DNA of 64,000 nt from positions 49,233-113,232 of the forward strand of contig CANQJH010000001.1 of the NCBI GenBank assembly GCA_947624195.1, given 5' to 3'. Of this stretch, positions 11,732-57,978 are shown one piece after another. Under the pieces are notes generated by a model, which was not told the origin of the DNA, did no database searches, and saw only the letters and a list, made by a program, of their open reading frames with translations. The position numbers and the translations under genes were made by a program. Source of the DNA: an uncultured Clostridia bacterium (GTDB lineage: Bacteria > Bacillota > Clostridia > TANB77 > CAG-508). Position 1 is the stretch's first letter. Every line of letters begins with the position of its first letter.

Positions 11732-12148
11732 AGTATTTCCTCTTTTTAATTTTGGTTAATAGGTAGGACGGCGTACCCTACATCTACTTATAAGACCATC
11801 TCTGGCGTGATAGCTGCCACTTTCTATCCTCAATTAACCTACTATGAGTGTACTCATAATTTTAAAAATTATGCATTACCTATATGTAAATATATTACAA
11901 AAATCTCAATAAGTCAATAGGTTTTAATTATTTTTTACAATTGTTGAACTAATTATAACTATATTTTAACATATTATTATAATTATGTCAACGGCTAAGA
12001 TATAGAATTTTTTCGTTTGTGCCTTTTTTTACTTTTTAATTGTAAAAAAATTTACATACTTTATTTTAATATTCGCCTCACTTTAAATTATTTTTTGTTT
12101 TTTTGCTCCTTTCTATATTTTACCAGTACAAGATGACACAATCTCCCT

Positions 12149-23164: not shown

Positions 23165-24613
23165 ATGGATAGTTATAAAAATTCTCAATTGGAAGAATTA
23201 AAAAATGATAATTATAAGAATGTGAAATTGGAAGAATTTAATAAGACTATATCTAACAAAAGAGTTGCCATTATTGGACTTGGTGTAAGCAACATCCCGC
23301 TTATTAATTACTTTAAAGATTTGGGAAGTTCGGTTTCTGTTTTTGATGACAGGGATGAAAGCAAAATAGAGCCAGATATTTTAGAAGAGCTAAAACAAAA
23401 TAATATTAAATTTTATTTAGGCGAAAATTGCTTAAAAGATTTGATAGGATTTAACTACATTTTTCGTTCGCCAAGTTGTATGCCATGGAGAGAAGAAATC
23501 CAAAAAGAAGTGAAAAATGGTGCTATTTTAACATCAGAAATTGAGCAAGTGTTAGAACTTAGTCCAAGCCATATTATAGGTGTGACTGGAAGTGATGGCA
23601 AAACAACAACAACTACTTTAGTGTATAAATTATTACAAGCTGAGGGATACAAATGTTTTTTGGGTGGCAATATAGGCACTCCGCTATTTACTCAAATTAA
23701 GGATATGGAGCCTGATGACTATGTTGTATTAGAGCTTAGCAGTTTTCAGCTAATGGATATGAAAGTAAGTCCGGAAATATCAATAGTTACCAACATTAGC
23801 CCTAATCATTTAAATGTACATAAAGATTATCAAGAGTATATTGATAGCAAAAAGAATATTTATTTACATCAAAGTCAAAATGGTATATTGGTTATAAACA
23901 AGGACAATGACATAACAAAAGAGTTTTACAAAGATGCTCCGGGAAAGGTTAGATTTTTTAGTCATAAGCAATTACTAAATGATGGTGTGATATTTGATGA
24001 AAATGATAGGACTATTAAAATATGCGAGGATGGAGTTAGAAAACATATTTTAAGGCAAAAAGATATGTTGATTAAAGGTGAACATAACTGCGAAAATGCT
24101 TGTAGTGCTATCTCTGCAGTGCTTGGTTTAGTTAAGGAAGACAATATAATTTCTACAATAAAAAATTTTGCTGGTGTTGAGCATAGGCTTGAGTTTGTTA
24201 GAGAAATTGATGGAGTAAAATGGTACAATGATTCTATTGGAACGAGCCCAACAAGAACTATTGCAGGACTTAATTCTTTTGATGAGAAAATTGTTTTAAT
24301 TGCTGGTGGATATGATAAGCACTTGGATTATACTCCAATTGGCAAGCCAATACTTGATAATGTTTCTAAGCTAATTTTAATGGGTGATACGGCAGAGAAA
24401 ATCTATAATAGCGTTGCTCAAGAAATGCAAGTGCAAAATAAGTCTATTCCTATTTACAGGTGTGCGACTTTACAAGAGGTTGTAAACAAAGCTAGAGAAG
24501 TTGCTACAAGTGGGGAAGTAGTACTATTTTCTCCTGCTAGTGCAAGTTTTGATTTATTTAAAAATTTTGAAGAAAGAGGAGAGAAGTTTAAGGACTTAGT
24601 GCGCGCAATTTAG
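23165..24613 (+). CDS. murD: UDP-N-acetylmuramoylalanine--D-glutamate ligase
   Basis: Mur ligase with GVTGSDGKTTTTTL P-loop and conserved middle and C-terminal domains. Confidence 0.85.
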   Translation: MDSYKNSQLEELKNDNYKNVKLEEFNKTISNKRVAIIGLGVSNIPLINYFKDLGSSVSVFDDRDESKIEPDILEELKQNNIKFYLGENCLKDLIGFNYIFRSPSCMPWREEIQKEVKNGAILTSEIEQVLELSPSHIIGVTGSDGKTTTTTLVYKLLQAEGYKCFLGGNIGTPLFTQIKDMEPDDYVVLELSSFQLMDMKVSPEISIVTNISPNHLNVHKDYQEYIDSKKNIYLHQSQNGILVINKDNDITKEFYKDAPGKVRFFSHKQLLNDGVIFDENDRTIKICEDGVRKHILRQKDMLIKGEHNCENACSAISAVLGLVKEDNIISTIKNFAGVEHRLEFVREIDGVKWYNDSIGTSPTRTIAGLNSFDEKIVLIAGGYDKHLDYTPIGKPILDNVSKLILMGDTAEKIYNSVAQEMQVQNKSIPIYRCATLQEVVNKAREVATSGEVVLFSPASASFDLFKNFEERGEKFKDLVRAI

Positions 24614-24786
24614 TACGTTACCATTATGTGCAATAAAAAACAACTATATTTATGTTATACGCAATGTACAAAACATAAAATAGTTGTTTTTATTAAATAA
24701 ATAGATTGAAGTTATTATTAATTATATATAAATTTAAACTATTATTAGTTAAATAGACTAGAATTATCAATCATTTTAAACAAATT

Positions 24787-24994
24787 AAAATTATTATTAA
24801 TTATATAGATTAATAATAAATTTTTTCACTTAAAGTATATGGTATTAAAATATTTTTGTCAATACTATGTTGATAAAAATTTTTTTATTTTTTTCATCAA
24901 AATAATTCAAAAAGCCTGATATAACTGTGAAACAAGTATTTTTAAATTATTATTAAACTATATATTTAATAATAAATAAAAATAGGAGGAAACC
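24787..24994 (+). repeat. duplicated 5' regulatory region (copy 2) upstream of target gene 4
   Basis: See 20389..20598. Confidence 0.8.
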
Positions 24995-25981
24995 ATGAAA
25001 AAACAAAAGAAAGAAAACAAGTTCAACTTAAAAGAACAAGGTATAACGCTAGTTGCGTTAGTAGTAACAATAATAATACTTTTAATCTTAGCAGGAGTAA
25101 CAATCAACATAGCTTTAAGGGAAAATGGATTATTTAAAATGTCAGAGAAAGTAGTAGAGAAGTATAAGGAAGAAGCAGGAAAGGAAGAGGAAACATTACA
25201 GGATTTAGAACAACACATAAAAAATAATACACCCGTTGAACCAGCAGAAGAACCTAAAGAGCCTATAGGAAAAACACCGTATGTAGGATATTATGCAAGT
25301 AGAGATGGAATAACAGTAGATGGAATAATATATGCAGACCAAGCAGTAGGAAATACAAACGGAACAAAATGGAGTGATGGTGATGGAACCTACACAATAC
25401 CAATAAAAGAAGAAGGCTTAAAGGAATACTATATAAGTCAAGAATCATACACAACAGAAGCCTTTGGACCAAAACCTGTGTTAACACCAATAAATGATGA
25501 AGGAGAAGACAGATTTTATATCATGTCACTTGAAGATTTTGGAGGAAAAGGACAAAGTTATTATTGGTATTATAGCGCATTTAAAAATATGAGTGATTAT
25601 AGTACAGCAACATCAACAAAATTTGGAACTGGAAAAACCAATACAGAGAACATGGTAGCAAAGTGGACGGCGGGAGAAAGTGAAGATGGTTATGGAAAGC
25701 AAGATGGGGGAAGCACATATAAAGATATATGGGGATACTTTTCAAGAAAAGAAATACCAGAAGGATGGTTTTTACCATCAAGAGGAGAATTAGCAGCATT
25801 TATGCAAGAATTAGGGATAAACAGCAGTAATTATTCTAATCAATTTCAATTATCTAGTTATTACTGGTCGTCGTCGCAGTTCAATTTTAACTACGCATGG
25901 CTCGCGTACATGCTTATTGGTTGTATGAGCAGCTACACTGTGAATTACGGCCGCTGCGTGCGCCTGAGTGCGACTTTCTGA
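24995..25981 (+). CDS. pilin-like-anchored protein with a C-terminal DUF1566-like domain; candidate DGR target 4, immediately upstream of the RT
   Basis: N-terminus QGITLVALVVTIIILLILAGV and a conserved stalk. The C-terminus SSYYWSSSQFNFNYAWLAYMLIGCMSSYTVNYGRCVRLSATF fits the YWSS...AW...R.VRCVR signature. Confidence 0.75.
   Translation: MKKQKKENKFNLKEQGITLVALVVTIIILLILAGVTINIALRENGLFKMSEKVVEKYKEEAGKEEETLQDLEQHIKNNTPVEPAEEPKEPIGKTPYVGYYASRDGITVDGIIYADQAVGNTNGTKWSDGDGTYTIPIKEEGLKEYYISQESYTTEAFGPKPVLTPINDEGEDRFYIMSLEDFGGKGQSYYWYYSAFKNMSDYSTATSTKFGTGKTNTENMVAKWTAGESEDGYGKQDGGSTYKDIWGYFSRKEIPEGWFLPSRGELAAFMQELGINSSNYSNQFQLSSYYWSSSQFNFNYAWLAYMLIGCMSSYTVNYGRCVRLSATF
25855..25978 (+). other. putative DGR variable-region-like patch at the extreme 3' end of target 4
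   Basis: Roughly 18% A by hand count over ~120 nt. Contains TCG-TCG-TCG, GCG, CGC, GGC and CTG codons that are rare elsewhere in this AT-rich genome. Confidence 0.5.
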
Positions 25982-26004
25982 TTTTGTAAAAAATCAGAAA
26001 AATA

Positions 26005-26075
26005 TAGGCCTACATTATGTAAATAATGTAGGCAATTCAAACCGAGATATTCTTCGTAAGAAGAAACTCGGTTTG
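26005..26075 (+). other. two consecutive stem-loops between target 4 and the RT, neither followed by a U-tract
   Basis: taggcctacatt...aatgtaggc (26005..26033) and caaaccgag...ctcggtttg (26038..26075), the latter with a nested ttcttcgtaagaagaa palindrome. Confidence 0.5.
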
Positions 26076-26178
26076 AATTAAAAGGATTAGATTGATAAAA
26101 GGAAATTTATTATAGAAAATGCGAGTTTCATTATATTAAGTTTAAATACTCTTCTTATGAAGAGTATTTTTATAAGAG

Positions 26179-27321
26179 GTGTATATGGATAATAAGCTAA
26201 CTTTTGAAGATTTATATGAAGCATATAATTTATGTTTAAAAAATAAAAAAAATAAAATAGGAACATATAATTTTGTAAACTATAATTTATGCAAAAATTT
26301 AATGGAGCTACTAGAAGAATTAAATAATAAACAATACATTCAAAGACAATCTAATTGTTATGTAGTTAAGGATCCAGCATTGAGAGAAATATATGCAGCT
26401 CAATTTTTTGACAGAGTAGTACAGCATTTTTATATGAAAGAAGTAGAACATATTTTAGAAGAACAATTAGTTGACGGTTGTTGTTCATGTAGAAAAAATA
26501 AAGGTAATGATTATGCTCTTCAATTATTAAAGAAATATCTTAAAGTAGTATCGAATAATGGGAAAAAAGACTGTTACTTTCTTAAAATTGATTTATCTGG
26601 ATATTTTATGTCAATAGATAGAAAGCAAATAAGTCAAAAGTTCTTAAATCTTATAAGCAATAAATATAAAGGACCATATAAAGAATTACTCATTTATTTA
26701 ACTCCAATTATATTTGAAAATAATCCGGCAGTGAACTGTAAGTATAAATGTAATGAAAAAGTAAGAAACCTAGTACCTGAAAGAAGAAAAATGAATCCGA
26801 AATCCGATTATGGAATGGCTATAGGTAATTTGACTTCTCAGGCAGGTAGCAATTTTAATCTCAGTGAATTTGATAATTACGTTGTATATAAACTAAATCT
26901 AGTTAATTATATTAGATATGTTGACGATATGGTGATAATTTCAAATAATAAACAAGAGTTACAAAATGCAATGCCGTATATAATAAATAAACTTAAAGAA
27001 ACTAATCAATCTATAAGTGAAAAGAAAACTAAAATAGATACTGCGTATCATGGAGTACCATTTTTGGGAAAAGTTTCTTTTCCATACGGTTATCAAAAAG
27101 CTAAAAAATCGACAATAGTGAGAGTATATAAAAGGGGTAGAGAAATTAGATATAAGGACACAGACAATTTATTAGCAAAAACAAATTCGCAAATTGGATT
27201 GCTAAAAGGATATAACTGCAGAAAACTAATATTAAATTATTCTAAAATTATACAAAACAAAACGGGAGACGAAATTTATTTGAATGAAGAAATGTTAAAA
27301 TTTTGTAAAAAGAATAAATAA
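26179..27321 (+). CDS. diversity-generating retroelement reverse transcriptase
   Basis: RT motifs ALREIYAAQFFDRVVQH (motifs 1/2), LKIDLSGYFMSIDRK (motif 3), AIGNLTSQ (the DGR-specific GxxxSQ motif 4) and YVDDMVII (motif 5). The likely start is the ATG at 26185 with an aagagg RBS; the track begins at a GTG at 26179. Confidence 0.85.
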   Translation: MYMDNKLTFEDLYEAYNLCLKNKKNKIGTYNFVNYNLCKNLMELLEELNNKQYIQRQSNCYVVKDPALREIYAAQFFDRVVQHFYMKEVEHILEEQLVDGCCSCRKNKGNDYALQLLKKYLKVVSNNGKKDCYFLKIDLSGYFMSIDRKQISQKFLNLISNKYKGPYKELLIYLTPIIFENNPAVNCKYKCNEKVRNLVPERRKMNPKSDYGMAIGNLTSQAGSNFNLSEFDNYVVYKLNLVNYIRYVDDMVIISNNKQELQNAMPYIINKLKETNQSISEKKTKIDTAYHGVPFLGKVSFPYGYQKAKKSTIVRVYKRGREIRYKDTDNLLAKTNSQIGLLKGYNCRKLILNYSKIIQNKTGDEIYLNEEMLKFCKKNK

Positions 27322-27411
27322 AGCTTGTTATATAGGAAAAATAAATAAATAGAAAAAATTGTAACAATACAATACCTCACTACATAAATTAATGTAGGAG
27401 GTATTTTTATA

Positions 27412-28338
27412 ATGTATGATGATTATTTTAAAAATATAATTGGTGGAAGTATAAAGTCTCCAGAATACTATGTTTCTACATATGATAACCATACTTATCA
27501 GCCTAGACAAGTAAGTGCTCTTCCAGGATACAATTATTCTGCCGATACAAATTTTAATGACAATGACATTGAAGATTTATATCCAGATATTTATAAAATT
27601 GTATCCCCAATGGTAGATAAACTTTTAGACGGAAAAACTTTTGATAATGTAAATGAAGACATGTTGGTAAAATGGACTGTGGAAATCTATGATGCTCTTG
27701 AAGTTGATGATGATAATACCAAATTAGTAAATGATAATGTTGCTAAAACTGGCAGTAGTGTTATTTCTAATGGTACTAGTAGATCAAATGTAAATCAAGG
27801 AGTTGCAGGTAATAGTAGCAATAATACTATAAGACCTGGCTCTAACTATGAAAGTGAAACTACTAGCGCAAGGACTGCACAGAGAACGGTGCTATCTAAT
27901 ACAGTTGCAAATACACCTTCTAATACTATGACTAAAGCGGGAATAACTACACCTTCTTCTACAATAAGTAGTACAGCGGTCAATACATCATCTAATTCGA
28001 TAACTAATACAGGAGTAAGCGCATCACCTAATACAGTAAATAATGCAACAGTCAATGCAATATCTAATTCTACAACAAATAAAGAACCAAAAGTGGTTGA
28101 TGTAGTAAGTAGATATAGAAATTATAAAAATCCGCTTCTAAGGGATTTAATAAGAATATTGATTTTAAATAAATTATATGGAAATCGTAGACCGCCAAGA
28201 GGTATGCCAAGACCTTATCAAGACTTTGAACCAACATTTATTCCTATGCCAGATTATAGTAGTGTAAACACAGAAGTTTATAAACCTTATACTAATTATT
28301 CTAAAGCTTACTTAGACACACCTTATCCAGAAGAATAA
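27412..28338 (+). CDS. hypothetical protein with an S/T/N-rich low-complexity core and a Pro/Tyr-rich C-terminus
   Basis: The RBS is embedded in a hairpin (cctcactacat...atgtaggagg). The middle third is repetitive SNT/ANT; possibly a spore-coat-like structural protein. Confidence 0.45.
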   Translation: MYDDYFKNIIGGSIKSPEYYVSTYDNHTYQPRQVSALPGYNYSADTNFNDNDIEDLYPDIYKIVSPMVDKLLDGKTFDNVNEDMLVKWTVEIYDALEVDDDNTKLVNDNVAKTGSSVISNGTSRSNVNQGVAGNSSNNTIRPGSNYESETTSARTAQRTVLSNTVANTPSNTMTKAGITTPSSTISSTAVNTSSNSITNTGVSASPNTVNNATVNAISNSTTNKEPKVVDVVSRYRNYKNPLLRDLIRILILNKLYGNRRPPRGMPRPYQDFEPTFIPMPDYSSVNTEVYKPYTNYSKAYLDTPYPEE

Positions 28339-28541
28339 GTATTTCAATTATTTAGTAATTTTGAAGATAACTTTTACGTAATAAATGTTGTATAAAGCTT
28401 GACAGAAAAGAATCTAATTCATATAATGTCTATAGGATTTTAAATAAAAAAAATTAATTAATTTTTAGGTAAATAAAAGTATAAATAATTATAAATAACT
28501 ATAAATAAGTCATAGGTAAACAAAGGGAGAAATAGAGTTTA

Positions 28542-29819
28542 ATGAAGTTAACAGAAGAAAAACGTAGAGAAATTTGTAAAACAAATATGAAACTATACCC
28601 AAATTATATAATGTTTGGATATGATTTGCTATTCTTTTATGGAATAAAAGTAATGTTTTTAAGTGAAGTTAAAGCCATGACAAATGCTCAGATATTGGTT
28701 TCTTCTTCACTTTTTGCATTGTTTACAATAATTATTCAATTTCCAGTAAGTGTTTTGGTTAGTAGAGTTGGCAAGCGAAATACAATAATTTTTGGAAATA
28801 TCATAAATATATTTTCAGTACTCGAATTTATGTTGTTACATTCTTTTTTAGGTTTGGTTGTGGCACAGTTGTTTTCTGCAATTGCTACATCATGTAAAAC
28901 TATATCTGAGGCAAATTTACTTACGATATCTATACCAGAAAGTGATAAGTCTGCTGAAATATTTACTTCAATAGACAAAAGGGCATATTCGAGATACTGT
29001 ATTTTATCAGCTATATCCACTATTATAGCTGGATTGTTATTTAACGTAAATGGCTATTTGCCAATGTTTTTATGCTTAATTTGTACCATTATTGCAACAT
29101 TGCTTTCTTTTAATTTTGGAGAACTTGAAAATGTAAAGAAAAATGGATTTACGTTAAAAGATTATGTTAAAGAATTAAAACAAGGATATAAATTTACAGT
29201 TAATTCAAAAAGATTGCGTGCTTTATTACTTGCAATTGGTTCTATTTGGGGAATATTAGCTTTAATAGATACGTACCAATTGGCATTAGTGCAATATATA
29301 GGAGCATCATCTATTCAGGTTGCTTTAGTTTTTGCTCTTTATGAAATTGCAAAAGCATTTTTCTCAAGAAGAGCAATAGAGTTTAATAACATTTTTAAGA
29401 ACAGGTCACTTACAAATATCTTAGCAGTATTTGCTTTTTGCTTGATTTTATGTGGTGCAGTTGCTATTATAAATATGTCATTTATATTTAAATTTTTATT
29501 AATAATTGTATTTGTTTTAATTATGGGTGCAATGAACGGTACATCACAGATATTGTCGAAAAAATATTTAAATAGTTTTACTAATTCTAAGATTTTAACT
29601 TGTATATATTCAGCTAAATCAATTTCGGATAATATCTCAAAAATGATAATAACTGGTGCGGGTTCATTTTTCTTATCTTTTGCCAATGTTGACATTGCAA
29701 TAATTATTGCAGGAATTGGTGTAATAATTTTAACCTTCTTTTTATCAATGTATATGAATGGAAGGGTTGGACTTGATCCAGAGGAATATACTCAAAAAGA
29801 TATTTACATAAGAAAATAA
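28542..29819 (+). CDS. polytopic membrane transporter (MFS-like)
   Basis: About 12 predicted hydrophobic segments; no diagnostic motif beyond the overall architecture. Confidence 0.5.
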   Translation: MKLTEEKRREICKTNMKLYPNYIMFGYDLLFFYGIKVMFLSEVKAMTNAQILVSSSLFALFTIIIQFPVSVLVSRVGKRNTIIFGNIINIFSVLEFMLLHSFLGLVVAQLFSAIATSCKTISEANLLTISIPESDKSAEIFTSIDKRAYSRYCILSAISTIIAGLLFNVNGYLPMFLCLICTIIATLLSFNFGELENVKKNGFTLKDYVKELKQGYKFTVNSKRLRALLLAIGSIWGILALIDTYQLALVQYIGASSIQVALVFALYEIAKAFFSRRAIEFNNIFKNRSLTNILAVFAFCLILCGAVAIINMSFIFKFLLIIVFVLIMGAMNGTSQILSKKYLNSFTNSKILTCIYSAKSISDNISKMIITGAGSFFLSFANVDIAIIIAGIGVIILTFFLSMYMNGRVGLDPEEYTQKDIYIRK

Positions 29820-31723: not shown

Positions 31724-34700
31724 ATGAATAAAATAGAACAAAAAAAATTGATGCAATTTTTGTATCAACATAAAGACGCAGTTTTTATTTTTAACTATAA
31801 TTTTATAGAAGATAGTCTTTTAGAAGAGGGAAAACATATAATAAGTCCACATAGAGATGGTGATACTATATTTAATTTTATTGTAGAAAATAGTGAAGTT
31901 ATAGATTTTAAAAAGTTCGTATTGTTTGGAGCATATAGTTCAAAAGTTGTAGTGTCATCACTAAATAATATTACAAATGATGGTATTTCAACACCATCTA
32001 AAGAATATTATGAAACTTTTTATAAATTTGCTAAGGAAAATATAAAAGAGAATGAAGACGTAACATTATTTGTATTCCCATCAGGTAAAAAAATGGGTAT
32101 TGTGGCTGTCAACTCAAAAAAAGAACTATATGGAAAAGAATATGTTCCAAAGAAATTAAGAATAAATCCAGAAGCTTATAAAGACTTAGTAGGAGCTGTT
32201 CAATTAGATAGTATAAAACACATATTTAAGGACAGCAATTTTGCATCTTTGGCATATGACATATTAGTCTATAATACGTTAACTCAGATGGGATATAAAG
32301 ATGCAGATATTGCTGGAATTATGGATAAAGAGACTGGAGCATTCGAATTTAGAACGTCTAAAGAATTTATAATGAATTTCCTTGATGCAAAGACACGTTT
32401 ATTCTTTGTTCCAGAAGTTACATCTCAAATTAATGAAGATAATTTATATATTACATCTGTTTATCAATTTATTGGTAAATTAAGTGCAGATATTAAAAGG
32501 TATCATGAATTAAATGAAGAAGAACGTAAATCTATGGATTTGTTTTCATTGAGAGAACTTGAAAGAGTGAAATATTTATTAGAAGAAGTTGAGAAAGCTA
32601 TAAACTTCAATAAAGTTACGGTTCTTATAAAAAATGTAGTTACTGGAGAGGAAGTAAAAGAAATATCTGCGAAAGTATATAGTAATGATTACAAAAGTGC
32701 TTTAAGTGAGTATGCTAAACTATTAATAGATAGAGACAATAAAAACATATTCAATCCTGACATACTTGCATTGCTTGATAAGAAGACAGCTTTACATTAT
32801 GCTGAGAAAATTCCAGATATGTACGCTGAGGAATTTAATTTCTTGTTATATGAAGCTAATTGTTTAACATTTAGTGAAGCATTAGAAAACATTAAAAAAA
32901 TTGGAATTAGTGATATAAATGAGGAATTTTTAAGGTTAAGAGCTGTGGATAGATACTTGACTGGAAGAAATAATACTTTAATGGATGTTGTAAATCAAAT
33001 TGGAATGAAAACAAGGAGAACTGATATAGGTGATACCTCGGCTCCGGAAAATGGTCAGCTTAATGTTACAGACGAAGCACAGGGCTCAGACATGGTAACT
33101 AATATTGAAAGACCTGAAGTTATGTTTGCGAAACCATTATCAGATGAAAATTTATATGAATTACTAGATGATACACTTAAAGCCATGTTTGTGAACGGTG
33201 CAATTAAAGAATATCTTGCCAAGGGCAAATACAGTGATATAGCTGAAAAAAATCTTAAATTATTCCATGCAAAGGGAGAACTACCTTTAGATGCATTCAT
33301 GACCTTTTATTCATATTTTGGAATGGATTTGGAAGTCATTGAAGAAATGTTTGGAAGCGAAAATGTTAAAAATACATTTAGTGCAGAACAATTGCTTTCA
33401 ACAGTTAACGATTTAATCGAGTATAGCAAAAAAGGCACTAAAACAGAGCAAGATGAAGAAAATCATACATACATTGTCAAAGATTATGAGTACTTAAAGA
33501 AAATATATCAAAAATATAATTTACTAAATGTCGATAATAATGAAGATAAAATATTAGAGGCATTTGATGATTTGATTTTTGATGATAATATTTTCAAACA
33601 ACTTTATGTTGATGGATTTATCTCAGGTAAGACTTTATATGATTTTAATAATGAACTAGCTAACAAACTTTACACTGAGGGAGAATTGAGAAGTGAAGAT
33701 AGACGATACTTTATTTTAAATTCGGGTATAGAACTTAGTGTTGGTGATATAATTAGATTAAATCAAGAAAAAGTTTTATCACATCAAGATGTTTTTGATT
33801 TTTATATGAAAGATAAAATCAATTTACAAGATTTAGCTAATTATGGCGAGGATATAGATTTTAGCGAAATTTTAAAAGATGATGAGTTAATAGCATTAGC
33901 GAAAAAATACAGCATGATAAGGAAAGATGATGCAAAAAATACATTTAACAAATACTTAGATGCATATATGAAATTCAAAAAGCCAGGATTGGACATACAA
34001 GAAAAATTATTAAAATCAATTGGAGGAAAAAATGCTAAAAATGAAGACTTACTAGAGCTATATTCTAAAGGCGTATTAAATATTGAAACAATTAATCCTA
34101 GTGATGATTTGCTTTTATTAATGATTAAACAGGGAAGATTAAAATCAGGGGATGAAGAACTACTATTTAAAGATACTGATATGCAAGGTACAAAGTATGT
34201 AAGATTAATGTCAATTTTGAGAAAACTAGATAGTGATGATGAGAAATTAAACTTACTAGCTGGTGTATACAAAACTGAAGATGAGGTATCATCAAGAAGA
34301 CTAAATATATTGGCAAATGAACTTTCATATGCATTTAACGAAGAGGGCGGCACAACATTGGGAGATGAATTACTTGACGATGATAATGCTAGCATAAAAC
34401 GTAAAGATAACGAAAATGATAAGCCTAAGTCAAAAGTTACAGTAGTAAGATCGCTTGCAAAAATGTTTGATACATTTAAGAGCATTAAAACAGATTATGA
34501 ACATATAATACTTTCTGGTACTTATGTAGTATTTTTAGATGATTCTGCATTAGTAGAAGAAGTATTTAGAAAATCAGCAGATGGCAAAAGTTTTGTTACT
34601 ACACATGCTACTTATAAAATTTCTGATGAATTTTTTAAACATTTCTTAAAAGATACATATAACTATGACTTTAGAAAAAATTTATCTGATTTCTTTATTG

Positions 34701-35044
34701 ATGTAAATAGAGAAGGTAAACCATATTTTAAATGGTCACTTTTAACAGCTGCAAGAAGAAGAAATATACCTGGAATTGATAAAGTTGTACATGGAAAAAC
34801 TTGGGCTGATAGATTAAAAGCAAAAGCAATAAAGAAGCCAGATATTGACGGACAAGAATTAAATGACGTGTTGGATAAAATTTCGAATTCAGCTCAAATA
34901 CGTGGTGTACATACAGATCTAGATGATGACAGCATTGATAAAAGTGCAATGAATAATTTTGATCCAGATGCAATGGTTGATTTAGACTCAAGTACAATGG
35001 GTGATTTTGACCCAAATGCAATGGTTGATTTTGAAGAAATATAA
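31724..35044 (+). CDS. large soluble hypothetical protein (1106 aa) with C-terminal FDP(D/N)AMVD repeats
   Basis: No transmembrane segment or known catalytic motif; a tandem DFDPNAMVD repeat sits at the extreme C-terminus. Confidence 0.5.
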   Translation: MNKIEQKKLMQFLYQHKDAVFIFNYNFIEDSLLEEGKHIISPHRDGDTIFNFIVENSEVIDFKKFVLFGAYSSKVVVSSLNNITNDGISTPSKEYYETFYKFAKENIKENEDVTLFVFPSGKKMGIVAVNSKKELYGKEYVPKKLRINPEAYKDLVGAVQLDSIKHIFKDSNFASLAYDILVYNTLTQMGYKDADIAGIMDKETGAFEFRTSKEFIMNFLDAKTRLFFVPEVTSQINEDNLYITSVYQFIGKLSADIKRYHELNEEERKSMDLFSLRELERVKYLLEEVEKAINFNKVTVLIKNVVTGEEVKEISAKVYSNDYKSALSEYAKLLIDRDNKNIFNPDILALLDKKTALHYAEKIPDMYAEEFNFLLYEANCLTFSEALENIKKIGISDINEEFLRLRAVDRYLTGRNNTLMDVVNQIGMKTRRTDIGDTSAPENGQLNVTDEAQGSDMVTNIERPEVMFAKPLSDENLYELLDDTLKAMFVNGAIKEYLAKGKYSDIAEKNLKLFHAKGELPLDAFMTFYSYFGMDLEVIEEMFGSENVKNTFSAEQLLSTVNDLIEYSKKGTKTEQDEENHTYIVKDYEYLKKIYQKYNLLNVDNNEDKILEAFDDLIFDDNIFKQLYVDGFISGKTLYDFNNELANKLYTEGELRSEDRRYFILNSGIELSVGDIIRLNQEKVLSHQDVFDFYMKDKINLQDLANYGEDIDFSEILKDDELIALAKKYSMIRKDDAKNTFNKYLDAYMKFKKPGLDIQEKLLKSIGGKNAKNEDLLELYSKGVLNIETINPSDDLLLLMIKQGRLKSGDEELLFKDTDMQGTKYVRLMSILRKLDSDDEKLNLLAGVYKTEDEVSSRRLNILANELSYAFNEEGGTTLGDELLDDDNASIKRKDNENDKPKSKVTVVRSLAKMFDTFKSIKTDYEHIILSGTYVVFLDDSALVEEVFRKSADGKSFVTTHATYKISDEFFKHFLKDTYNYDFRKNLSDFFIDVNREGKPYFKWSLLTAARRRNIPGIDKVVHGKTWADRLKAKAIKKPDIDGQELNDVLDKISNSAQIRGVHTDLDDDSIDKSAMNNFDPDAMVDLDSSTMGDFDPNAMVDFEEI

Positions 35045-36147: not shown

Positions 36148-38895
36148 ATGAAACTATTTAAATCTTATAGTGAAAAAGAAGTAAAAAGAGTTATGCCTTT
36201 GGTTAACAAGATAAACTCTTTAGAAGCGGATATGCAAAAATTAACAGATGAAGAACTTAAGGGAAAGACAGATTATTTCAAAAAAGAATTAGAAAAGGGT
36301 AAAACTCTTGATGATATATTACCTGAAGCTTTTGCTGTTGTTAGGGAAGCGGCTAAAAGAGTTATAGGTATGAGACATTTCGACGTGCAATTAATTGGTG
36401 GAATTATACTTCACCAAGGAAGAATTGCCGAAATGAAAACTGGTGAAGGTAAAACGTTAGTTGCAACACTTCCAGCTTATTTAAATGCCTTAACTGGAAA
36501 AGGTGTTCATATTATAACAGTTAACGACTACTTAGCCAAAAGAGACAGTGAGTGGATGGGAAAGGTTTATAACTTTTTAGGTCTTACTGTAGGCTTAGTT
36601 ATAAATGGTATGAAACCTAACGAAAAACAAGACGCTTATAATTGCGATATTACATATGGAACAAACAATGAATTTGGATTTGATTATCTAAGAGACAACA
36701 TGGTTGTATATGAAAATCAATTAGTTCAAAGAGAACTTAATTATGCAATCGTAGACGAGATAGATAGTATCTTAATTGATGAGGCAAGAACACCACTTAT
36801 TATATCAGGACGAGCTAATCAAGCATCTGATATATACAAAAAAGCTGATAGATTTGTTGCAAAACTTGAAGCAAAAACATTAATTGAAGAAGATGTTAAG
36901 GATATAGCTCAAGAAGAAGACAACGAAAATTATGATTACATTATTGACTTAAAAGCAAAATCTGCTTCACTTACTCAAAAAGGTATAGCTAAAGCAGAAA
37001 AAGAATTTGGACTAGAAAACTTTAACGATATAGAAAACTCAGAACTTGTACACGCAGTTAATCAAGCTTTACGTGCACATGGTATAATGAAAAAAGATGT
37101 TGACTATATAGTAAAAGATGGGGAAGTTCTTATTGTTGATGAATTTACCGGTCGTATCATGTATGGAAGAAGATACAACAATGGACTTCATCAAGCAATT
37201 GAAGCAAAAGAGCATGTTAAGGTAGCAGATGAATCAAAGACTTTAGCAAACATCACTTTCCAAAACTACTTTAGAATGTATGATAAATTATCTGGTATGA
37301 CTGGTACTGCTATGACTGAGGAAGAAGAATTCCAAGAAATATACAGATTAGATGTTATTGAAATTCCAACTAACAAACCAATGATAAGAAAAGATCTTCC
37401 AGATATTATTTACAAAAATGAAGATGCGAAGTTTAGAGCAGTTATAAATGATATAAAAGAAAGTTATGCCAAAGGTCAACCAGTACTTGTTGGTACAGTT
37501 TCTATTGATAAATCAGAAAAGCTAAGTAAAATGCTTAACAAAGAAAGAATACCACACCAAGTTTTAAATGCTAAGTTCCATGAAAAAGAAGCAGAAATAA
37601 TTGCACAAGCTGGTAAGTATAAAGCTGTTACAATAGCAACTAACATGGCAGGACGTGGTACTGATATTGTATTAGGTGGAAATAGCGAATATTTAGCAAA
37701 ACAAGAAATGAGAGATAAATACACCTACGAAGAAATAGAAGAAGCTACAGCATTTAATGAAACAGACGACAAGGCAATTATTGCAAGAAGAGAAGAATTT
37801 AGAAAATTAGTTAAGAAATATGATAAAGGCATAGAAGATGAAAGACAAAAAGTTATCGAAGCTGGTGGACTAAAAATAATTGGTACAGAAAGACACGAAT
37901 CAAGACGTATAGATAACCAGTTAAGAGGACGTTCAGGAAGACAAGGAGACCCAGGAGAATCAAGATTTTATATTGCACTAGATGATGACTTAATGAAAAT
38001 CTTTGGCGGAAATACTATTACAAAATTATATAATTCTTTAGGCGTAAATGAAGATATGCCTATTGAAGTAAAACTAATTTCTAAAGCTGTTGAAAATGCT
38101 CAAAAGAAGGTTGAGGGCAGAAACTTCAGTATAAGAAAGAACGTTCTACAATATGATGATGTTATGAACAGACAAAGAGAAACTATTTACTTACAAAGAA
38201 GAGAAGTTCTTGCTGGCAAAGACTTAAAAGATAATATAATCTCTATGATTAATTCAGTTGCAGAAGAACTAGTTGAATCATACATTAATGGCGATTCTAA
38301 TGACGTAGAAGGTTTAATGCAAGAAGTTTCAAATACATTTGGAATTAACTCATTAGATAGTGTAAAAGTAGATGAAGTTAAAGAAGCTGATGTATTAAAG
38401 GAACTTCAAGACAAAGCTATAGAAATATATGAAGATAAGAACGAAAAATTCGGCGAATCTTTAAGAGAACTTGAAAGAGTTGTTCTATTAAAAATAGTTG
38501 ACCAAAAATGGATGGAACATATAGACAATATGGATGAACTAAAACGTGGTGTTGGTTTACGTGCTTATGGTCAAAAAGATCCAATTGTTGTATATAGAGA
38601 TGAAGGTTCAAATATGTTCGACCAAATGAGTCTAGACATTAGATTTGAAGTAGTTAGATTGCTAATGCATGTTACAAAAAGAGAAGAAAATCAATCAAGA
38701 AAAGAGTCAGCTAGAATTACAGATGCTAAATTACAAGAAAAATCAGCAATTGAGCTAGTTGATGGAAATCTTTCTCCAAAAGAGGGTGGAGTAAACAGAA
38801 CCATAGTAAATGAAACACCAAAAATTGGTAGGAACGACCCCTGTCCTTGCGGCTCGGGCTTGAAGTACAAGAACTGCCACGGAAAGAACGCATAA
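36148..38895 (+). CDS. secA: preprotein translocase ATPase SecA
   Basis: DEAD-like motor (MKTGEGKT), preprotein cross-linking domain, and a C-terminal zinc-binding [14 protein letters not shown] tail. Confidence 0.95.
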
Positions 38896-39010: not shown

Positions 39011-40111
39011 ATGATTGAATTAGAAGAAGCTATAAAAATTAATGAGAATCAAATTAATAAAATAAAGGATATTGGAAAGTCAATTGACATAAATGCATTA
39101 AAAGACAAATTGGCTGAATTAGAGCAAAAGACTAATGAACAAGACTTTTGGAGCGACAGTGCAAATTCGGCTAGAATTTTGTCGGAGATTACAGAAATAA
39201 AGAAAAAAATAGCTAACTATACCGAGGTAGAAAAAGACGTAAATACCATATTTGAGTTAATTGAATTGTTAAAAGAAGAAAATGATAAAGATATGGAATC
39301 TGAACTTGAAAAACTAATCAGTTCTACTAATAATAAAATAGATGAATTAGAAATTTCTACTTTACTATCTGATAAATATGACAAAAATAATGCAATTGTT
39401 ACAATTCATCCAGGTGCAGGTGGAACAGAAGCTCAGGATTGGGCTGAAATGCTATATAGGATGTATACAAGGTGGGCTGAAGCTAATGGATTTAAGTTAG
39501 AAGAATTAGACTATTTAGATGGGGAGGAAGCTGGACTAAAAAGTGTAACTTTCCTTGTGTCAGGTGATTATGCTTATGGTCACTTAAAATCAGAACATGG
39601 TGTTCATAGATTAGTTAGGATTTCACCTTTTGATAGTGGTGGAAGAAGACACACATCATTTGCTTCTTTAGAAGTTTTACCTGAAATAACAGATGATAAT
39701 GATATATATATTAATCCAGATGATATCAAAATGGATGTTTACAGAGCGTCTGGCGCTGGAGGTCAGCACATAAACAAAACTTCTTCTGCAGTTAGGTTAA
39801 CTCATATACCAACGGGAATCGTTGTAAGTTGTCAAACTGAGAGAAGCCAGTTTCAAAACAAAGATACAGCAATGAAAATGCTTAAATCTAAATTAGTTAA
39901 TTTAAAAGAAAAAGAAAACAAAGAAACCATTGATGAATTAAAAGGTATACAAATGGATATTGCTTGGGGTAGCCAAATACGTTCGTATGTTTTCTGCCCT
40001 TACACCATGGTTAAAGACCACAGAACGGGTTATGAAGTGGGGGATGTGCAGAAGGTTATGGACGGCAACATCAATGATTTTATTTATGAGTATCTTAAGC
40101 AAAACCTTTAA
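39011..40111 (+). CDS. prfB: peptide chain release factor 2
   Basis: SPF tripeptide context and GGQ motif (ASGAGGQHINKT). Single continuous frame; no CTTTGAC frameshift site is present. Confidence 0.85.
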   Translation: MIELEEAIKINENQINKIKDIGKSIDINALKDKLAELEQKTNEQDFWSDSANSARILSEITEIKKKIANYTEVEKDVNTIFELIELLKEENDKDMESELEKLISSTNNKIDELEISTLLSDKYDKNNAIVTIHPGAGGTEAQDWAEMLYRMYTRWAEANGFKLEELDYLDGEEAGLKSVTFLVSGDYAYGHLKSEHGVHRLVRISPFDSGGRRHTSFASLEVLPEITDDNDIYINPDDIKMDVYRASGAGGQHINKTSSAVRLTHIPTGIVVSCQTERSQFQNKDTAMKMLKSKLVNLKEKENKETIDELKGIQMDIAWGSQIRSYVFCPYTMVKDHRTGYEVGDVQKVMDGNINDFIYEYLKQNL

Positions 40112-40927: not shown

Positions 40928-41914
40928 CTATTTGTAATTGGCAAGAGGATTTGCTTCAACTGCTTTTCTTACTTGGTCATTATCAACGTGCGTGTATATT
41001 TCGGTAGTGGATATGCTTTGATGTCCTAGTAGTTCTTGGAGAGCTCTTATATCAACTTGTCCATATTTATACATTAACGTAGCAGCAGTATGTCTCAATT
41101 TGTGAGTAGAGTATTTAGTTGTATCTAACCCAGCTTTTTGCAATTCTTTAGAAACAACATTTTCAACTGTACGCTTGCTAATTCTTTGCCTGTAGGAACT
41201 TAAGAATAGTGCCTTATCAGAATTTTTGGAATCTTTTTTTGCATCAATTGGTCTGACTTTTAAATATGAATTAATTGCATCAATACAAGCTTTATTAAGA
41301 TAAATGGTACGTTCTTTGTTGCCTTTACCAATTACAGTAAGTTTGCAGTCATCAAATTTAATATCAGATATATTAATTCCAACAAGTTCAGAAAGACGCA
41401 TACCACAATTTAAAAATAGGGTAATTATAGCATAATCTCTTTCTTTATTTTTATTTTCCTCATCCTCAGATATAGTAGTAAGAAGTTTTTGACTGTCTTC
41501 TAATGTTAAATATTTTGGTAGCCTTTTATTTAGCTTTGGAGTCTCAATATTTTGTGCAGGATTATTTTTAATTGTGTTAGTAGTAACAGTCAAATATTTA
41601 AAAAATATTCTTATGGTTGAAATTCTTTTAGCGCATGTAGCAGGTCCACATTTTCTGTTTAGAGAAAGATATGAGATGAAAGTATGTATATCTTCTGGAG
41701 TTATTCTTTCTAAATCAGATAATTTATAATCATTTATTTTGATATCATCAAAATTCTCTTCATTTGTCAAATGAAAATGATATTTCATATATTTTAAAAA
41801 CATATTTAAATCGCAATTATACTGGTCCACAGAAGCAGGGGATTTTTTTTGATATGTTAGCGAATAATCAAGAAATGAATTTAAAAAGGTAGGATTTTCC
41901 TCAGTTTTTATCAT
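40928..41914 (-). CDS. tyrosine site-specific recombinase (XerC/XerD family)
   Basis: C-terminal catalytic box HKLRHTAATLMY...GHQSISTTEIYTHV with the nucleophilic Tyr. Confidence 0.75.
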   Translation of the reverse strand: MIKTEENPTFLNSFLDYSLTYQKKSPASVDQYNCDLNMFLKYMKYHFHLTNEENFDDIKINDYKLSDLERITPEDIHTFISYLSLNRKCGPATCAKRISTIRIFFKYLTVTTNTIKNNPAQNIETPKLNKRLPKYLTLEDSQKLLTTISEDEENKNKERDYAIITLFLNCGMRLSELVGINISDIKFDDCKLTVIGKGNKERTIYLNKACIDAINSYLKVRPIDAKKDSKNSDKALFLSSYRQRISKRTVENVVSKELQKAGLDTTKYSTHKLRHTAATLMYKYGQVDIRALQELLGHQSISTTEIYTHVDNDQVRKAVEANPLANYK

Positions 41915-57477: not shown

Positions 57478-57607
57478 ACCTTCTTTTTGATAGTATTATA
57501 TAAGTAAAGCACCTTACAGCTTATCATTTTATCATAAATTTACACATATATCAAGTTTTTAGGCAAATAAAAAATGTAAAGTTTTTGCACTTTACATTTA
57601 TAGTAAA

Positions 57608-57940
57608 TCTATAAGCCGGGTTCTGTCTAGAATGGTCATTTATCTAGGATATATATTGCTATATACCTCAAGCCACCAAATTTAGAGGACGACGAGCAGT
57701 CTTAACCCTCTAGTCTCGGTGTTGCTCCAGATGGGGTTTACACGGCTAGATGTATCACTACATCTACGGTGAGCTCTTACCTCGCCTTTTCACCCTTACC
57801 ATTTACATGGCGGTTATTTTCTGTTGCACTTTCCTTAAGGTTACCCTCACTTGACGTTATCAAGCATCCTTGCTCTACGGAGCCCGGACTTTCCTCATAC
57901 GCTGCCTTTCGGCCTTGCAATACGCGACCATTTAACTTAC
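57608..57940 (-). ncRNA. rnpB: RNase P RNA
   Basis: Minus-strand sequence contains GAGGAAAGTCCGGGCTCC, GGTAAGGGTGAAAAGGCGAGGTAAGAGCTCACC and the 3' ACAGAACCCGGCTTA. A hairpin plus T-run terminator follows. The track ORFs 57769..57960 and 57777..57977 are spurious. Confidence 0.8.
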
Positions 57941-57978
57941 TAAATTTAATTATACAATGATTTGCGTGCTTTGTCAAA

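What the first reader, a model, noticed from the sequence alone, without database searches (positions are those of the whole stretch)
26179..27321. DGR-type reverse transcriptase embedded in a housekeeping region
The 380-aa protein has the full RT motif series. In motif 4 it carries IGNLTSQ, the GxxxSQ signature that separates DGR reverse transcriptases from group II intron (GxxxSP) and retron enzymes. It also carries the YVDD catalytic box. It sits immediately 3' of a gene whose terminal ~120 nt are compositionally aberrant. There are no phage structural genes nearby, so this looks like a chromosomal DGR rather than a prophage-borne one.
Basis: partly seen in the sequence, partly recalled or inferred. 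Interest (0 to 1): 0.9.

Follow-up and report, generated by a model that had tools for sequence, protein, structure and literature searches.

The report
DGR reverse transcriptase missing its template
The gene is a genuine diversity-generating-retroelement reverse transcriptase sitting beside its hypervariable target gene, but a ~700-base deletion has removed the template repeat and an accessory gene, so this is most likely a switched-off remnant rather than a working mutagenesis system.

Summary
An intact RT ORF (best start ATG 26185, 378 aa) carries IGNLTSQ and YVDD. Its best solved-structure match is Bordetella phage bRT (E=9e-18). It follows a gene whose last ~118 nt are the most GC-rich stretch in the window, in a housekeeping, non-phage neighbourhood.

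No template repeat (TR) exists anywhere in the 64 kb. Relatives (64-74% identical RTs from uncultured gut Clostridia) have target/VR, three hairpins, a 153-aa accessory gene, TR, then RT. The window keeps the VR, the hairpins, the last 10 nt of the TR (TGCGAGTTTC, with the TR-specific G), the spacer and the RT. About 705 nt in between are gone.

The VR shows past adenine mutagenesis. It shares register with relatives' VRs. It also differs from a paralogous VR (L196) mainly at sites where relatives' TRs carry A (p=3e-7).

Intact relatives show 27-32 VR differences between samples. The window's VR is identical in every assembly that includes it.

Several relatives are inactivated in other ways, so decay is common in this family.

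Verdict: a decayed member of a known system, of modest interest. A TR elsewhere in the genome was not excluded.

The parts
24995..25981 (+). Target (variable-protein) gene, 328 aa. It has an N-terminal prepilin-like hydrophobic segment (KEQG|ITLVALVVTIIILLILAG) and a C-terminal Lcl_C/DUF1566-type C-type-lectin-like domain that carries the VR.
   Evidence: ORF. Lcl_C hits in the window protein (E=0.0024) and in 23 of 51 homologues; N_methyl in 10 of 51. AF2 model pLDDT 85. Foldseek top hits are the Bacteroides fimbrial protein 4eps and the Legionella Lcl C-domain 8q4e, then C-type lectins.
25846..25978 (+). Variable repeat (VR), 133 nt, in the same register as relatives' VRs. It ends in the GC-rich IMH-like ...TGCGTGCGCCTGAGTGCGACTTTC, with the VR-specific C at 25974.
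   Evidence: Same codon register as the VR/TR of L005 and L009. Most GC-rich stretch in the window. Differs from the paralogous VR in L196 at 31 sites, 24 of which are sites where relatives' TRs have A (Fisher p=3e-7).
25975..26000 (+). Post-VR hairpin 1 (TTCTGATTTT-GTAA-AAAATCAGAA). It contains the target stop codon. The window's TGA (relatives have TAA) is matched by a compensating change in the 3' arm.
26008..26033 (+). Post-VR hairpin 2 (GGCCTACATTAT-GTAA-ATAATGTAGGC).
   Evidence: Five of 9 consensus pairs keep pairing through changes on both sides across 16 loci. Fold.
26034..26079 (+). Post-VR hairpin 3, a long stem with an inner CTTC-GTAA-GAAG tip. With hairpins 1 and 2 it forms the presumed target-recognition (cruciform) or terminator element.
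   Evidence: DNA fold of the window element z=-12.1. The same three-hairpin layout occurs with unrelated stem sequences in L005, L138, L143 and L166 (z -6.7 to -12.8).
26080..26119 (+). Deletion junction. These 40 nt stand in place of about 745 nt that hold the 153-aa accessory gene and ~123 of 133 nt of the TR in intact relatives.
   Evidence: Alignments. The distance from the end of hairpin 3 to the TR's GAGTTTC is 750-755 nt in L005, L009 and L132 but 45 nt in the window.
26120..26129 (+). Remnant of the TR 3' end (TGCGAGTTTC). It matches the window's own VR end TGCGACTTTC except for the G/C difference that separates TR from VR in every relative.
26130..26184 (+). Spacer between TR and RT, conserved with relatives. 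It includes a hairpin (about 26144-26170, AAATACTCTTC-TTAT-GAAGAGTATTT) and the RBS GAGGTG.
   Evidence: Alignment; sequence.
26185..27321 (+). DGR-class reverse transcriptase gene, 378 aa, intact.
   Evidence: phrog_1423, E=1e-59.

Best explanation
This is the chromosomal remnant of a diversity-generating retroelement of a Clostridia-specific lineage. The working form of this lineage has, in order: a target gene with a C-terminal VR; three GTAA-looped hairpins; a basic 153-aa accessory gene; a ~133-nt AAY-rich TR; a short spacer; and the RT. In some relatives a MutS-like gene follows.

In the working form, the RT copies the TR RNA into cDNA while misincorporating opposite adenines. The cDNA then replaces the VR, rewriting the ligand-binding face of a pilin-like, C-type-lectin-fold surface protein.

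In the window, a single deletion of about 705 nt removed the accessory gene and all but the last 10 nt of the TR. The RT gene, spacer, VR and target-recognition hairpins survive, but nothing remains to copy. Mutagenic retrohoming at this locus is therefore off, and the VR is frozen in its last state.

Shown: RT class, absence of a TR in 64 kb, the deletion junctions, the VR footprint, and VR invariance across assemblies. Inferred: loss of activity, the role of the hairpins, and the role of the accessory gene.
For: - RT class: SQ motif and YVDD. Best PDB match is bRT 8ub7 at E=9e-18, identified as bRT because the alignment numbering (I181, Q187, D138, D215/216) matches the bRT cryo-EM preprint. 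[quoted passage not shown]
- No TR in the window: an ungapped scan at >=55% identity, a scan penalising only non-A mismatches, blastn-short, and a 'VR base or A' pattern with up to 3 mismatches all return only the VR itself.
- Intact relatives: L005 and L009 have TR/VR pairs with 25/26 and 22/23 mismatches at TR adenines. The single exception is the G(TR)/C(VR) difference in ...GA[G/C]TTTC.
- Junctions: homology to relatives runs from the VR through the three hairpins, then resumes at TGCGAGTTTCATTATA. The intervening distance is 45 nt against 750-755 nt. tblastn finds no trace of the accessory gene in the window.
- Past activity: the window VR and the paralogous VR in L196 share a 100% identical scaffold, while the rest of the two genes is only ~75-92% identical. 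They differ at 31 sites, 27 at codon positions 1-2, enriched at relatives' TR-A sites (odds ratio ~10, p=3e-7).
- Frozen now: the window is identical over up to 13 kb to contigs from 4 runs, and the two that span the VR match it exactly. The target protein is a singleton cluster.
- Controls: intact relatives with identical RT and TR differ at 27-32 VR positions between samples. Relatives with an RT nonsense codon have VRs identical or 1 nt apart in 6 samples.
- Mechanistic requirement: in the Bordetella system, cDNA synthesis needs the TR, flanking RNA and Avd (10.1101/2023.10.23.563531).
Against: - The RT ORF is fully intact. It has only one private substitution at otherwise invariant family positions (L224F), within the 0-3 seen in relatives. 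This fits a very recent deletion, but it would also fit continued use.
- Only the 64-kb window and 10 kb of L196 were searched for a TR. My scan of the genome collection failed, returning only poly-A runs.
- VR invariance rests on the window plus two contigs that span the VR, from one accession series. The species is rarely sampled: SecA, MurD and RF2 are singleton clusters on 4 contigs.
- No read-level data were available.
Confidence: 0.8

Rival explanations
1. The DGR is still active because a cognate TR, with or without the accessory gene, lies elsewhere in the genome and is used in trans by this RT.
For: The RT ORF shows no decay. The VR, the IMH-like end and the hairpins are intact. A second target paralogue lies at a remote locus (L196), so this system has acted, or been copied, beyond the RT locus. 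The rest of the genome was not searched.
Against: The locus's own TR was demonstrably deleted in situ, leaving a 10-nt remnant at the canonical position. In every relative surveyed that still has a TR, it lies directly upstream of the RT. In the Bordetella system the TR must be flanked in cis by upstream and spacer RNA. No VR variation is seen. The accessory gene is absent from the window.
Confidence: 0.08
2. The orphan RT has been kept for a function other than mutagenic retrohoming, for example a defence-type or other cDNA-producing role, after the TR was lost.
For: The ORF is intact and all catalytic and family-invariant residues are conserved. The spacer hairpin and the TR 3' end are retained.
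Against: There is no positive evidence. No partner genes or defence-island context are present. Other TR-less or accessory-less relatives have truncated or nonsense RTs, which suggests the RT is not maintained once the system breaks. An intact ORF is also what a recent deletion would leave.
Confidence: 0.05
3. The missing TR is an assembly artefact, a collapse of the VR/TR repeat.
For: VR/TR repeats can confuse assemblers. The Logan contigs break at 25960.
Against: A repeat collapse would place the junction inside the VR/TR homology. Here the full VR and about 100 nt of unique hairpin sequence precede the junction, and only 10 nt of the TR follow it. The same junction appears in contigs from 4 runs built by two different pipelines, with no differences. 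The Logan break at 25960 is explained by the L196 paralogue diverging at 25990, assuming k=31 (the k value is from my own knowledge).
Confidence: 0.02
4. The RT is not a DGR enzyme but a group II intron, retron or Abi/DRT reverse transcriptase.
For: NCBIfam lists weak hits to group II RT/maturase (70 bits), retron St85 (48 bits) and Drt2-5.
Against: All those hits are far below their cut-offs (300, 235, 200-550 bits). The best structural homologue is bRT. Relatives at 64-74% identity sit next to bona fide A-biased TR/VR pairs. Rfam finds no group II intron or retron RNA in the window.
Confidence: 0.01

Closest known systems
Legionella pneumophila DGR and related 'Architecture D' elements with category 'd' (DUF1566/CLec2) targets (Wu et al. 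2017, PMC5758913)
   Same: Chromosomal. The target has a C-terminal DUF1566/Lcl_C-type VR domain. A small basic accessory gene sits upstream of TR-RT, and the closest relatives carry a small MutS-like (MSL) gene after the RT.
   Different: The window lacks the TR, the accessory gene and the MSL gene. The target carries a prepilin-like N-terminus rather than a lipoprotein signal. The relatives' 153-aa accessory protein has no detectable sequence similarity to Avd. Three post-VR hairpins are present rather than one.
Bordetella phage BPP-1 DGR (bRT, Avd, TR, Sp; Mtd target)
   Same: The RT is homologous from the N-terminal extension through motif 4 (IGSLTSQ against IGNLTSQ) to YxDD. The VR lies at the 3' end of a C-type-lectin-fold gene. 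A GC-rich IMH-like end is followed by hairpin(s) with 4-nt loops, as described for BPP-1 target recognition (PMC3240598).
   Different: BPP-1 is phage-borne, complete and active. Here the element is chromosomal and lacks a TR. The TR-RT spacer is only about 58 nt in this family, against 140 nt in BPP-1.
Apparently intact SQ-motif RTs without detectable TR/VR, and presumed inactive DGRs, noted by DiGReF (Schillinger et al. 2012, PMC3521204)
   Same: An intact RT with SQ and YxDD but no TR/VR pair. Those authors suggested that inactivation could fix a well-adapted target.
   Different: Those cases were mostly put down to short contigs or sloppy repeats. Here the contig is long, and the deletion junctions, TR remnant and frozen VR are defined explicitly.
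Bacteroides DGRs that diversify pilus-tip adhesins (10.1101/2024.11.15.621889)
   Same: Gut-associated chromosomal DGRs with Avd-like and Msl accessory genes that diversify pilus-related surface proteins. The best fold match of the window's target is a Bacteroides fimbrial protein (4eps).
   Different: Different phylum and pilus type (a type IV-pilin-like N-terminus here). Those elements are demonstrably active.

Membership tests
Diversity-generating retroelement (DGR) | RT of the DGR clade: (I/V/L)GxxxSQ in motif 4, YxDD, and closest similarity to known DGR RTs | tested here: met
   IGNLTSQ and YVDD. Best PDB hit is bRT 8ub7 at E=9e-18, against 7e-6 for a group II maturase. phrog_1423 at 1e-59. 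Relatives at 64-74% identity sit in complete DGRs. No formal phylogeny was built.
Diversity-generating retroelement (DGR) | A template repeat (TR) cognate to the VR, normally next to the RT | tested here: not met
   No TR in 64 kb on either strand by four methods. Only a 10-nt 3' remnant remains at 26120-26129. The rest of the genome was not searched (searches failed).
Diversity-generating retroelement (DGR) | VR at the 3' end of a target ORF that differs from the TR almost only at TR adenines | tested here: inconclusive
   A direct TR/VR comparison is impossible. The indirect evidence is strong. The VR is in register with relatives' VRs. The two paralogous VRs differ at 31 sites, 24 of them relatives' TR-A sites (p=3e-7) and 27 at codon positions 1-2, on a 100% identical scaffold. 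A retention of 15/37 is like that of active relatives.
Diversity-generating retroelement (DGR) | IMH-type VR end with downstream hairpin or cruciform target-recognition element | tested here: met
   GC-rich VR end with the TR/VR-discriminating C at 25974. Three conserved hairpins show covariation, z=-12.1. Their function is inferred from the BPP-1 work (PMC3240598).
Diversity-generating retroelement (DGR) | Accessory gene (Avd or equivalent) in the cassette; present in most but not all DGRs | tested here: not met
   tblastn with the relatives' 153-aa and MutS-like proteins finds nothing in the window.
Diversity-generating retroelement (DGR) | Variable domain with a C-type-lectin-type fold | tested here: met
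   Lcl_C (ex-DUF1566) in 23 of 51 homologues. Confident AF2 model. Foldseek hits to 4eps, 8q4e and then C-type lectins, although E-values are modest (>=0.003).
Diversity-generating retroelement (DGR) | Ongoing VR diversification between or within populations | tested here: not met
   No VR differences among the window and the two contigs that span the VR, and a singleton protein cluster. Active relatives show 27-32 differences. The sample is small and no reads were available.
Group II intron RT/maturase | Match to the RT/maturase model above cut-off, and an intron RNA structure around the ORF | tested here: not met
   TIGR04416 scores 70 bits against a cut-off of 300. No group II intron RNA was found by Rfam in the window.
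Retron and Abi/DRT defence RTs | Match to family models above cut-off, with an adjacent msr/msd ncRNA or effector genes | tested here: not met
   Retron St85 scores 48 against 235; Drt2-5 score 20-35 against 200-550. No retron RNA in Rfam. The neighbours are housekeeping genes.

The most novel reading that the evidence does not exclude
Loss of the TR, with the RT, VR and recognition hairpins left untouched, may be a selected 'locking' event. It would fix one variant of a pilin-like adhesin once that variant is well adapted. It would also be one instance of a recurrent on/off cycle in this gut Clostridia DGR lineage, where at least five other independent ways of disabling the element were seen. 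A second possibility is that the undecayed orphan RT is still in use, either with a remote TR or for another cDNA function.
Probability: 0.12. Interest if true: 0.5.

Novelty: new member of a known kind. Interest (0 to 1): 0.3.

Why it matters
DGR surveys usually require an RT plus a TR/VR pair, so elements like this one are either missed or miscalled. An RT-only caller would score it as a DGR, and a TR/VR caller would drop it.

This locus is a cleanly resolved case of how a DGR dies. The deletion junctions are defined, a 10-nt TR stub remains, and the VR still carries the adenine-mutagenesis footprint.

Together with the relatives, it shows that inactivation is frequent in one gut Clostridia DGR lineage. 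The routes seen are TR deletion, RT nonsense codons, and RT truncations at either end. It also shows that VR variability between samples tracks the integrity of the element.

That makes the idea that DGRs are switched off to fix an adapted variant more concrete and testable. It does not change how DGRs are understood to work.

Tried and rejected
1. Genome-wide TR search. I scanned genome contigs with a 79-nt pattern in which each VR base could be itself or A. Every position therefore accepted A, and the scan returned only poly-A runs (49,210 trivial matches, none real). A remote TR therefore remains untested.

2. Generic repeat finder on 24000-29000. It found only AT-rich chance repeats.

3. 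Self-templating or repeated mutagenesis of the VR after TR loss. Rejected, because A retention at former TR-A sites (15/37) falls within the range of active relatives (14-21/37).

4. VR heterogeneity as the reason the Logan contigs start at 25960. Replaced by a simpler explanation: the L196 paralogue shares sequence up to 25989 and diverges at 25990, which is 25960 + 30 for k=31.

5. Identifying the 153-aa accessory protein as Avd. Pfam, NCBIfam, PHROGs, and PDB searches by single sequence and by a 12-sequence profile gave nothing significant. Only its position and a basic pI of 9.55 resemble Avd.

6. A remnant of the MutS-like gene downstream of the RT. None was found, and only the 72-74% subgroup of relatives has that gene.

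7. Organism name. Exact look-ups of SecA, MurD and RF2 gave unnamed singleton clusters. Only 'Clostridia bacterium' labels on RT and target homologues are available.

8. A literature search for the PDB code 8UB7 found nothing. I inferred its identity from residue numbering instead.

9. The promoter scan around the junction found no more sites than shuffled sequence.

Full report
**Observation**

The GTG lies inside the Shine-Dalgarno-like GAGGTG. The database gene call and all relatives start at the ATG at 26185, giving 378 aa.

The protein contains IGNLTSQ and YVDD, in columns that are invariant or nearly so across 35 family members. It matches Pfam RVT_1 at E=5e-15.

The upstream gene (24995..25981) ends in a segment of 50.8% GC and 17.8% A. 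The rest of the gene is 33.6% GC and 44.2% A, and the window is 29.7% GC. This is the most GC-rich 118-nt stretch in the 64 kb.

The neighbours are UvrB, UvrA, Cmk and MurD on one side and an MFS transporter, an AI-2E transporter, SecA and RF2 on the other. PHROGs gives no phage structural hit.

**RT class**

The best match among solved structures is 8ub7_A (328 aa, E=9e-18). It aligns from the N-terminal extension through IGSLTSQ/IGNLTSQ to the catalytic box. The next hits are another RT at 1e-8, a group II maturase at 7e-6 and a Cas6-RT-Cas1 at 1e-3.

I could not find the PDB code in the literature. However, the chain numbering in the alignment (D138, I181, Q187, D215, D216) matches the residues named for Bordetella bRT in the cryo-EM preprint 10.1101/2023.10.23.563531. 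On that basis 8ub7 is bRT.

NCBIfam gives only sub-threshold hits to group II, retron and Drt models: 70, 48 and 20-35 bits against cut-offs of 200-550. Rfam finds no intron or retron RNA in the window.

Schillinger et al. [quoted passage not shown] The RT is a DGR-class enzyme.

**The missing template**

A DGR is defined by a TR/VR pair, and I found no TR. Four searches were run on both strands of the whole window: an ungapped scan at >=55% identity, a scan that penalises only mismatches at non-A template positions, blastn-short, and a 'VR base or A' pattern allowing 3 mismatches. All return only the VR itself. The gap between the target gene and the RT is only 203 nt.

**What relatives look like**

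The RT has thousands of homologues. The closest are 64-74% identical and come from uncultured gut Clostridia. Their contexts show a consistent cassette:

- a target gene with a C-terminal VR;
- a structured spacer;
- a conserved, basic 153-aa gene;
- about 130 nt of non-coding sequence;
- a 133-nt AAY-rich TR;
- about 58 nt of spacer;
- the RT;
- in the closest subgroup, a 127-aa MutS domain I protein.

In L005 and L009 the TR/VR mismatches are 25/26 and 22/23 at TR adenines. The one exception is a G (TR) against C (VR) in ...GA[G/C]TTTC.

This corresponds to 'Architecture D' with category 'd' (DUF1566/CLec2) targets in Wu et al. 2017, exemplified by the Legionella DGR. One caveat applies. The 153-aa protein shows no sequence similarity to Avd or to any family or solved structure, even with a 12-sequence profile. 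It shares only Avd's position and its basic pI of 9.55.

Close relatives are absent from the viral collection, which holds only RTs at 28-34% identity. That supports a cellular lineage.

**The deletion**

Aligning the window with L005, L009 and L132 shows homology from the VR end through about 105 nt of hairpins, to around 26085. Homology resumes at 26120 with TGCGAGTTTCATTATA, which is the last 10 nt of a TR followed by the spacer and the RT start.

The remnant matches the window's own VR end (TGCGACTTTC) except for the G/C position that separates TR from VR in every relative.

The distance from the end of hairpin 3 to GAGTTTC is 750-755 nt in intact relatives and 45 nt in the window. About 705 nt are therefore missing. 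They held the accessory gene and roughly 123 of the 133 TR nucleotides.

tblastn finds no trace of the accessory gene, the MutS-like gene or the small upstream ORF anywhere in the window.

The junction is not where a VR/TR assembly collapse would put it. It is also identical in contigs from four runs built by two pipelines.

**Evidence of past activity**

The VR is in the same 33-codon register as relatives' VRs.

The closest homologue of the target (P0122, 75% identity) lies on L196. That contig comes from the same accession series and has the same GC content (0.296 against 0.297). The gene there is a 5'-truncated paralogue beside a decayed serine recombinase, with no RT nearby.

Its VR shares a 100% identical scaffold with the window VR, up to TGATTTTGTAA, although the rest of the two genes is only about 75-92% identical. 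The two sequences differ at 31 sites, 29 of them inside the VR. Of the 31, 27 are at codon positions 1-2 and 24 are at positions where relatives' TRs have A (odds ratio ~10, Fisher p=3e-7).

Setting the differing sites to A reconstructs a typical TR: ...TAC AAT AAT AAC AAA GCA TGG CAC GCG TAC ATG AAT AAT GGT... The simplest reading is that one TR rewrote both VRs before it was lost.

The two loci diverge at 25990. This also explains why two Logan contigs both start at 25960 (25990 minus 30, for k=31; the k value is from my own knowledge). It implies that both loci are present in those samples. That L196 belongs to the same genome is inferred, not shown.

**Evidence of present inactivity**

The window is identical to L001-L004 over up to 13 kb. 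L001 and L002 span the VR and match it exactly. The target protein is a singleton 90% cluster.

Two controls frame this. Intact relatives with identical RT and TR differ at 27-32 VR positions between samples and at 1-14 positions in the rest of the cassette. A sub-lineage with an in-frame TGA at RT codon 146 has VRs identical or 1 nt apart in six samples. In this family, VR variability tracks the integrity of the element.

The window VR retains A at 15 of 37 core TR-A sites, within the 14-21 seen in active relatives. It looks like a single ordinary retrohoming product, not something produced by an unusual process after TR loss.

Caveats: the VR comparison rests on few assemblies from one accession series. 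The species is rarely sampled, since SecA, MurD and RF2 are also singleton clusters on 4 contigs. No reads were available.

**State of the RT**

The ORF is intact. At columns invariant in the other 34 sequences it has one private substitution (L224F), within the 0-3 range of its relatives. This fits a recent deletion, but it does not exclude continued use.

**Target protein and recognition element**

The target has a prepilin-like N-terminus. Ten of 51 homologues hit N_methyl, and one is annotated as a type II secretion system protein. It has an Lcl_C (ex-DUF1566) C-terminal domain, found in 23 of 51 homologues.

The AF2 model is confident, with pLDDT above 94 for residues 90-328. Its best fold matches are a Bacteroides fimbrial protein (4eps) and the Legionella Lcl C-domain (8q4e), then C-type lectins, all with modest E-values.

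Downstream of the VR lie three hairpins, each closed by a GTAA-type tetraloop. The first contains the stop codon, and the window's TGA is matched by a compensating change in the 3' arm. The second shows compensatory changes in 5 of 9 pairs. The layout is preserved with unrelated stems in divergent relatives (z -6.7 to -12.8) and is intact in the window (z -12.1). The L196 paralogue lacks it.

By analogy with the BPP-1 IMH and hairpin/cruciform (PMC3240598), I infer that this is the target-recognition element. A terminator role is not excluded.

**Decay is common in the family**

The survey found several other states:

- L155: accessory gene kept, TR deleted, RT truncated at 309 aa.
- L157-161: accessory gene truncated, TR gone, RT lacking its first 130 aa.
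- L183: an 83-aa RT stub directly after the hairpins.
- L180/181: only the first 87 RT residues, with TR and VR kept.
- L174: accessory gene truncated and RT matched in two separate pieces, with TR and VR kept.
- Eleven loci with the RT nonsense codon. Five of them also lack the accessory gene but keep a TR/VR pair, and two others (L147, L150) lack it and show no nearby VR.

The window is one more route. It is the only one seen here in which the RT is fully intact.

**Comparison with the literature and verdict**

Intact SQ-motif RTs without TR/VR have been noted before. They were mostly attributed to short contigs. Fixing of an adapted target through loss of DGR activity has been proposed (PMC3521204). 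Large surveys score activity only for elements that have TR/VR pairs (10.1101/2020.04.01.020958).

This locus is therefore a decayed member of a known kind. It is well resolved but not mechanistically new.

Its implication of a complete DGR is not.

The main open point is whether a TR exists elsewhere in the genome. My attempt to test that failed for a technical reason of my own making: the pattern accepted poly-A.

Noticed in passing
L141, L142, L144-L151, L162 (RT codon 146; e.g. L147 4086-4088): A sub-lineage of this RT family, seen in many human-gut metagenomes, has an in-frame TGA where the family has a nearly invariant Arg (CGA to TGA). The gene's real stop is also TGA, so this is a nonsense mutation rather than recoding. 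VRs in six of these samples are identical or 1 nt apart.
   Followed up: partly
L196 1-2300: A 5'-truncated paralogue of the target gene (P0122) lies next to a frameshifted serine-recombinase gene and an ABC transporter. Its VR scaffold is identical to the window's but it lacks the post-VR hairpins. It probably belongs to the same genome as the window (same study series, same GC, and it explains the Logan contig break).
   Followed up: partly
window 25975-26079 and the equivalent in about 20 related loci: Three consecutive hairpins follow the VR, each closed by a GTAA-like tetraloop. The first embeds the target gene's stop codon. BPP-1 has a single hairpin, so this is an elaborated version of the target-site structure.
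   Followed up: partly
L005 5219-5680 and homologues in about 25 loci: A conserved 153-aa basic protein (pI 9.55) occupies the avd position. It has no detectable similarity to Avd or to any Pfam, NCBIfam, PHROG or PDB entry. It may be a new accessory-factor family or a highly diverged Avd.
   Followed up: partly
L155, L157-L161, L174, L180/L181, L183: Other independent decay states of the same DGR lineage: TR deletion with a truncated RT, loss of the RT N-terminus, RT stubs, and a truncated accessory gene.
   Followed up: partly
window 11755-11838 (-): Skipping-rope sRNA (Rfam RF02924, 63 bits).
   Followed up: no
window 57596-57943 (-): Bacterial RNase P RNA class A (289 bits). It accounts for one of the GC-rich islands.
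   Followed up: no
window 31724-35044 (+) and 27412-28338 (+): A 1106-aa ORF and a 308-aa Ser/Thr/Asn-rich ORF directly downstream of the RT. The 1106-aa ORF has no Pfam or PHROG hit; the 308-aa ORF has no Pfam, NCBIfam or PHROG hit. The 308-aa gene sits where relatives carry the MutS-like gene but is unrelated to it.
   Followed up: no
window 24693-24824: AT-rich direct repeats of about 53 nt (3 overlapping copies, 66-74% identical) in the 380-nt intergenic region upstream of the target gene.
   Followed up: no
window 40928-41914 (-): A tyrosine recombinase (Phage_integrase plus SAM-like N domain) about 14 kb from the RT, among housekeeping genes. It is probably Xer-type rather than a prophage integrase.
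   Followed up: no
window-wide (SecA 36148-38895, MurD 23165-24613, RF2 39011-40111): These housekeeping proteins are singleton clusters at 90% identity, seen on only 4 contigs among about 15 billion proteins. The source organism is a very sparsely sampled, low-GC (about 30%) Clostridia-like lineage.
   Followed up: partly
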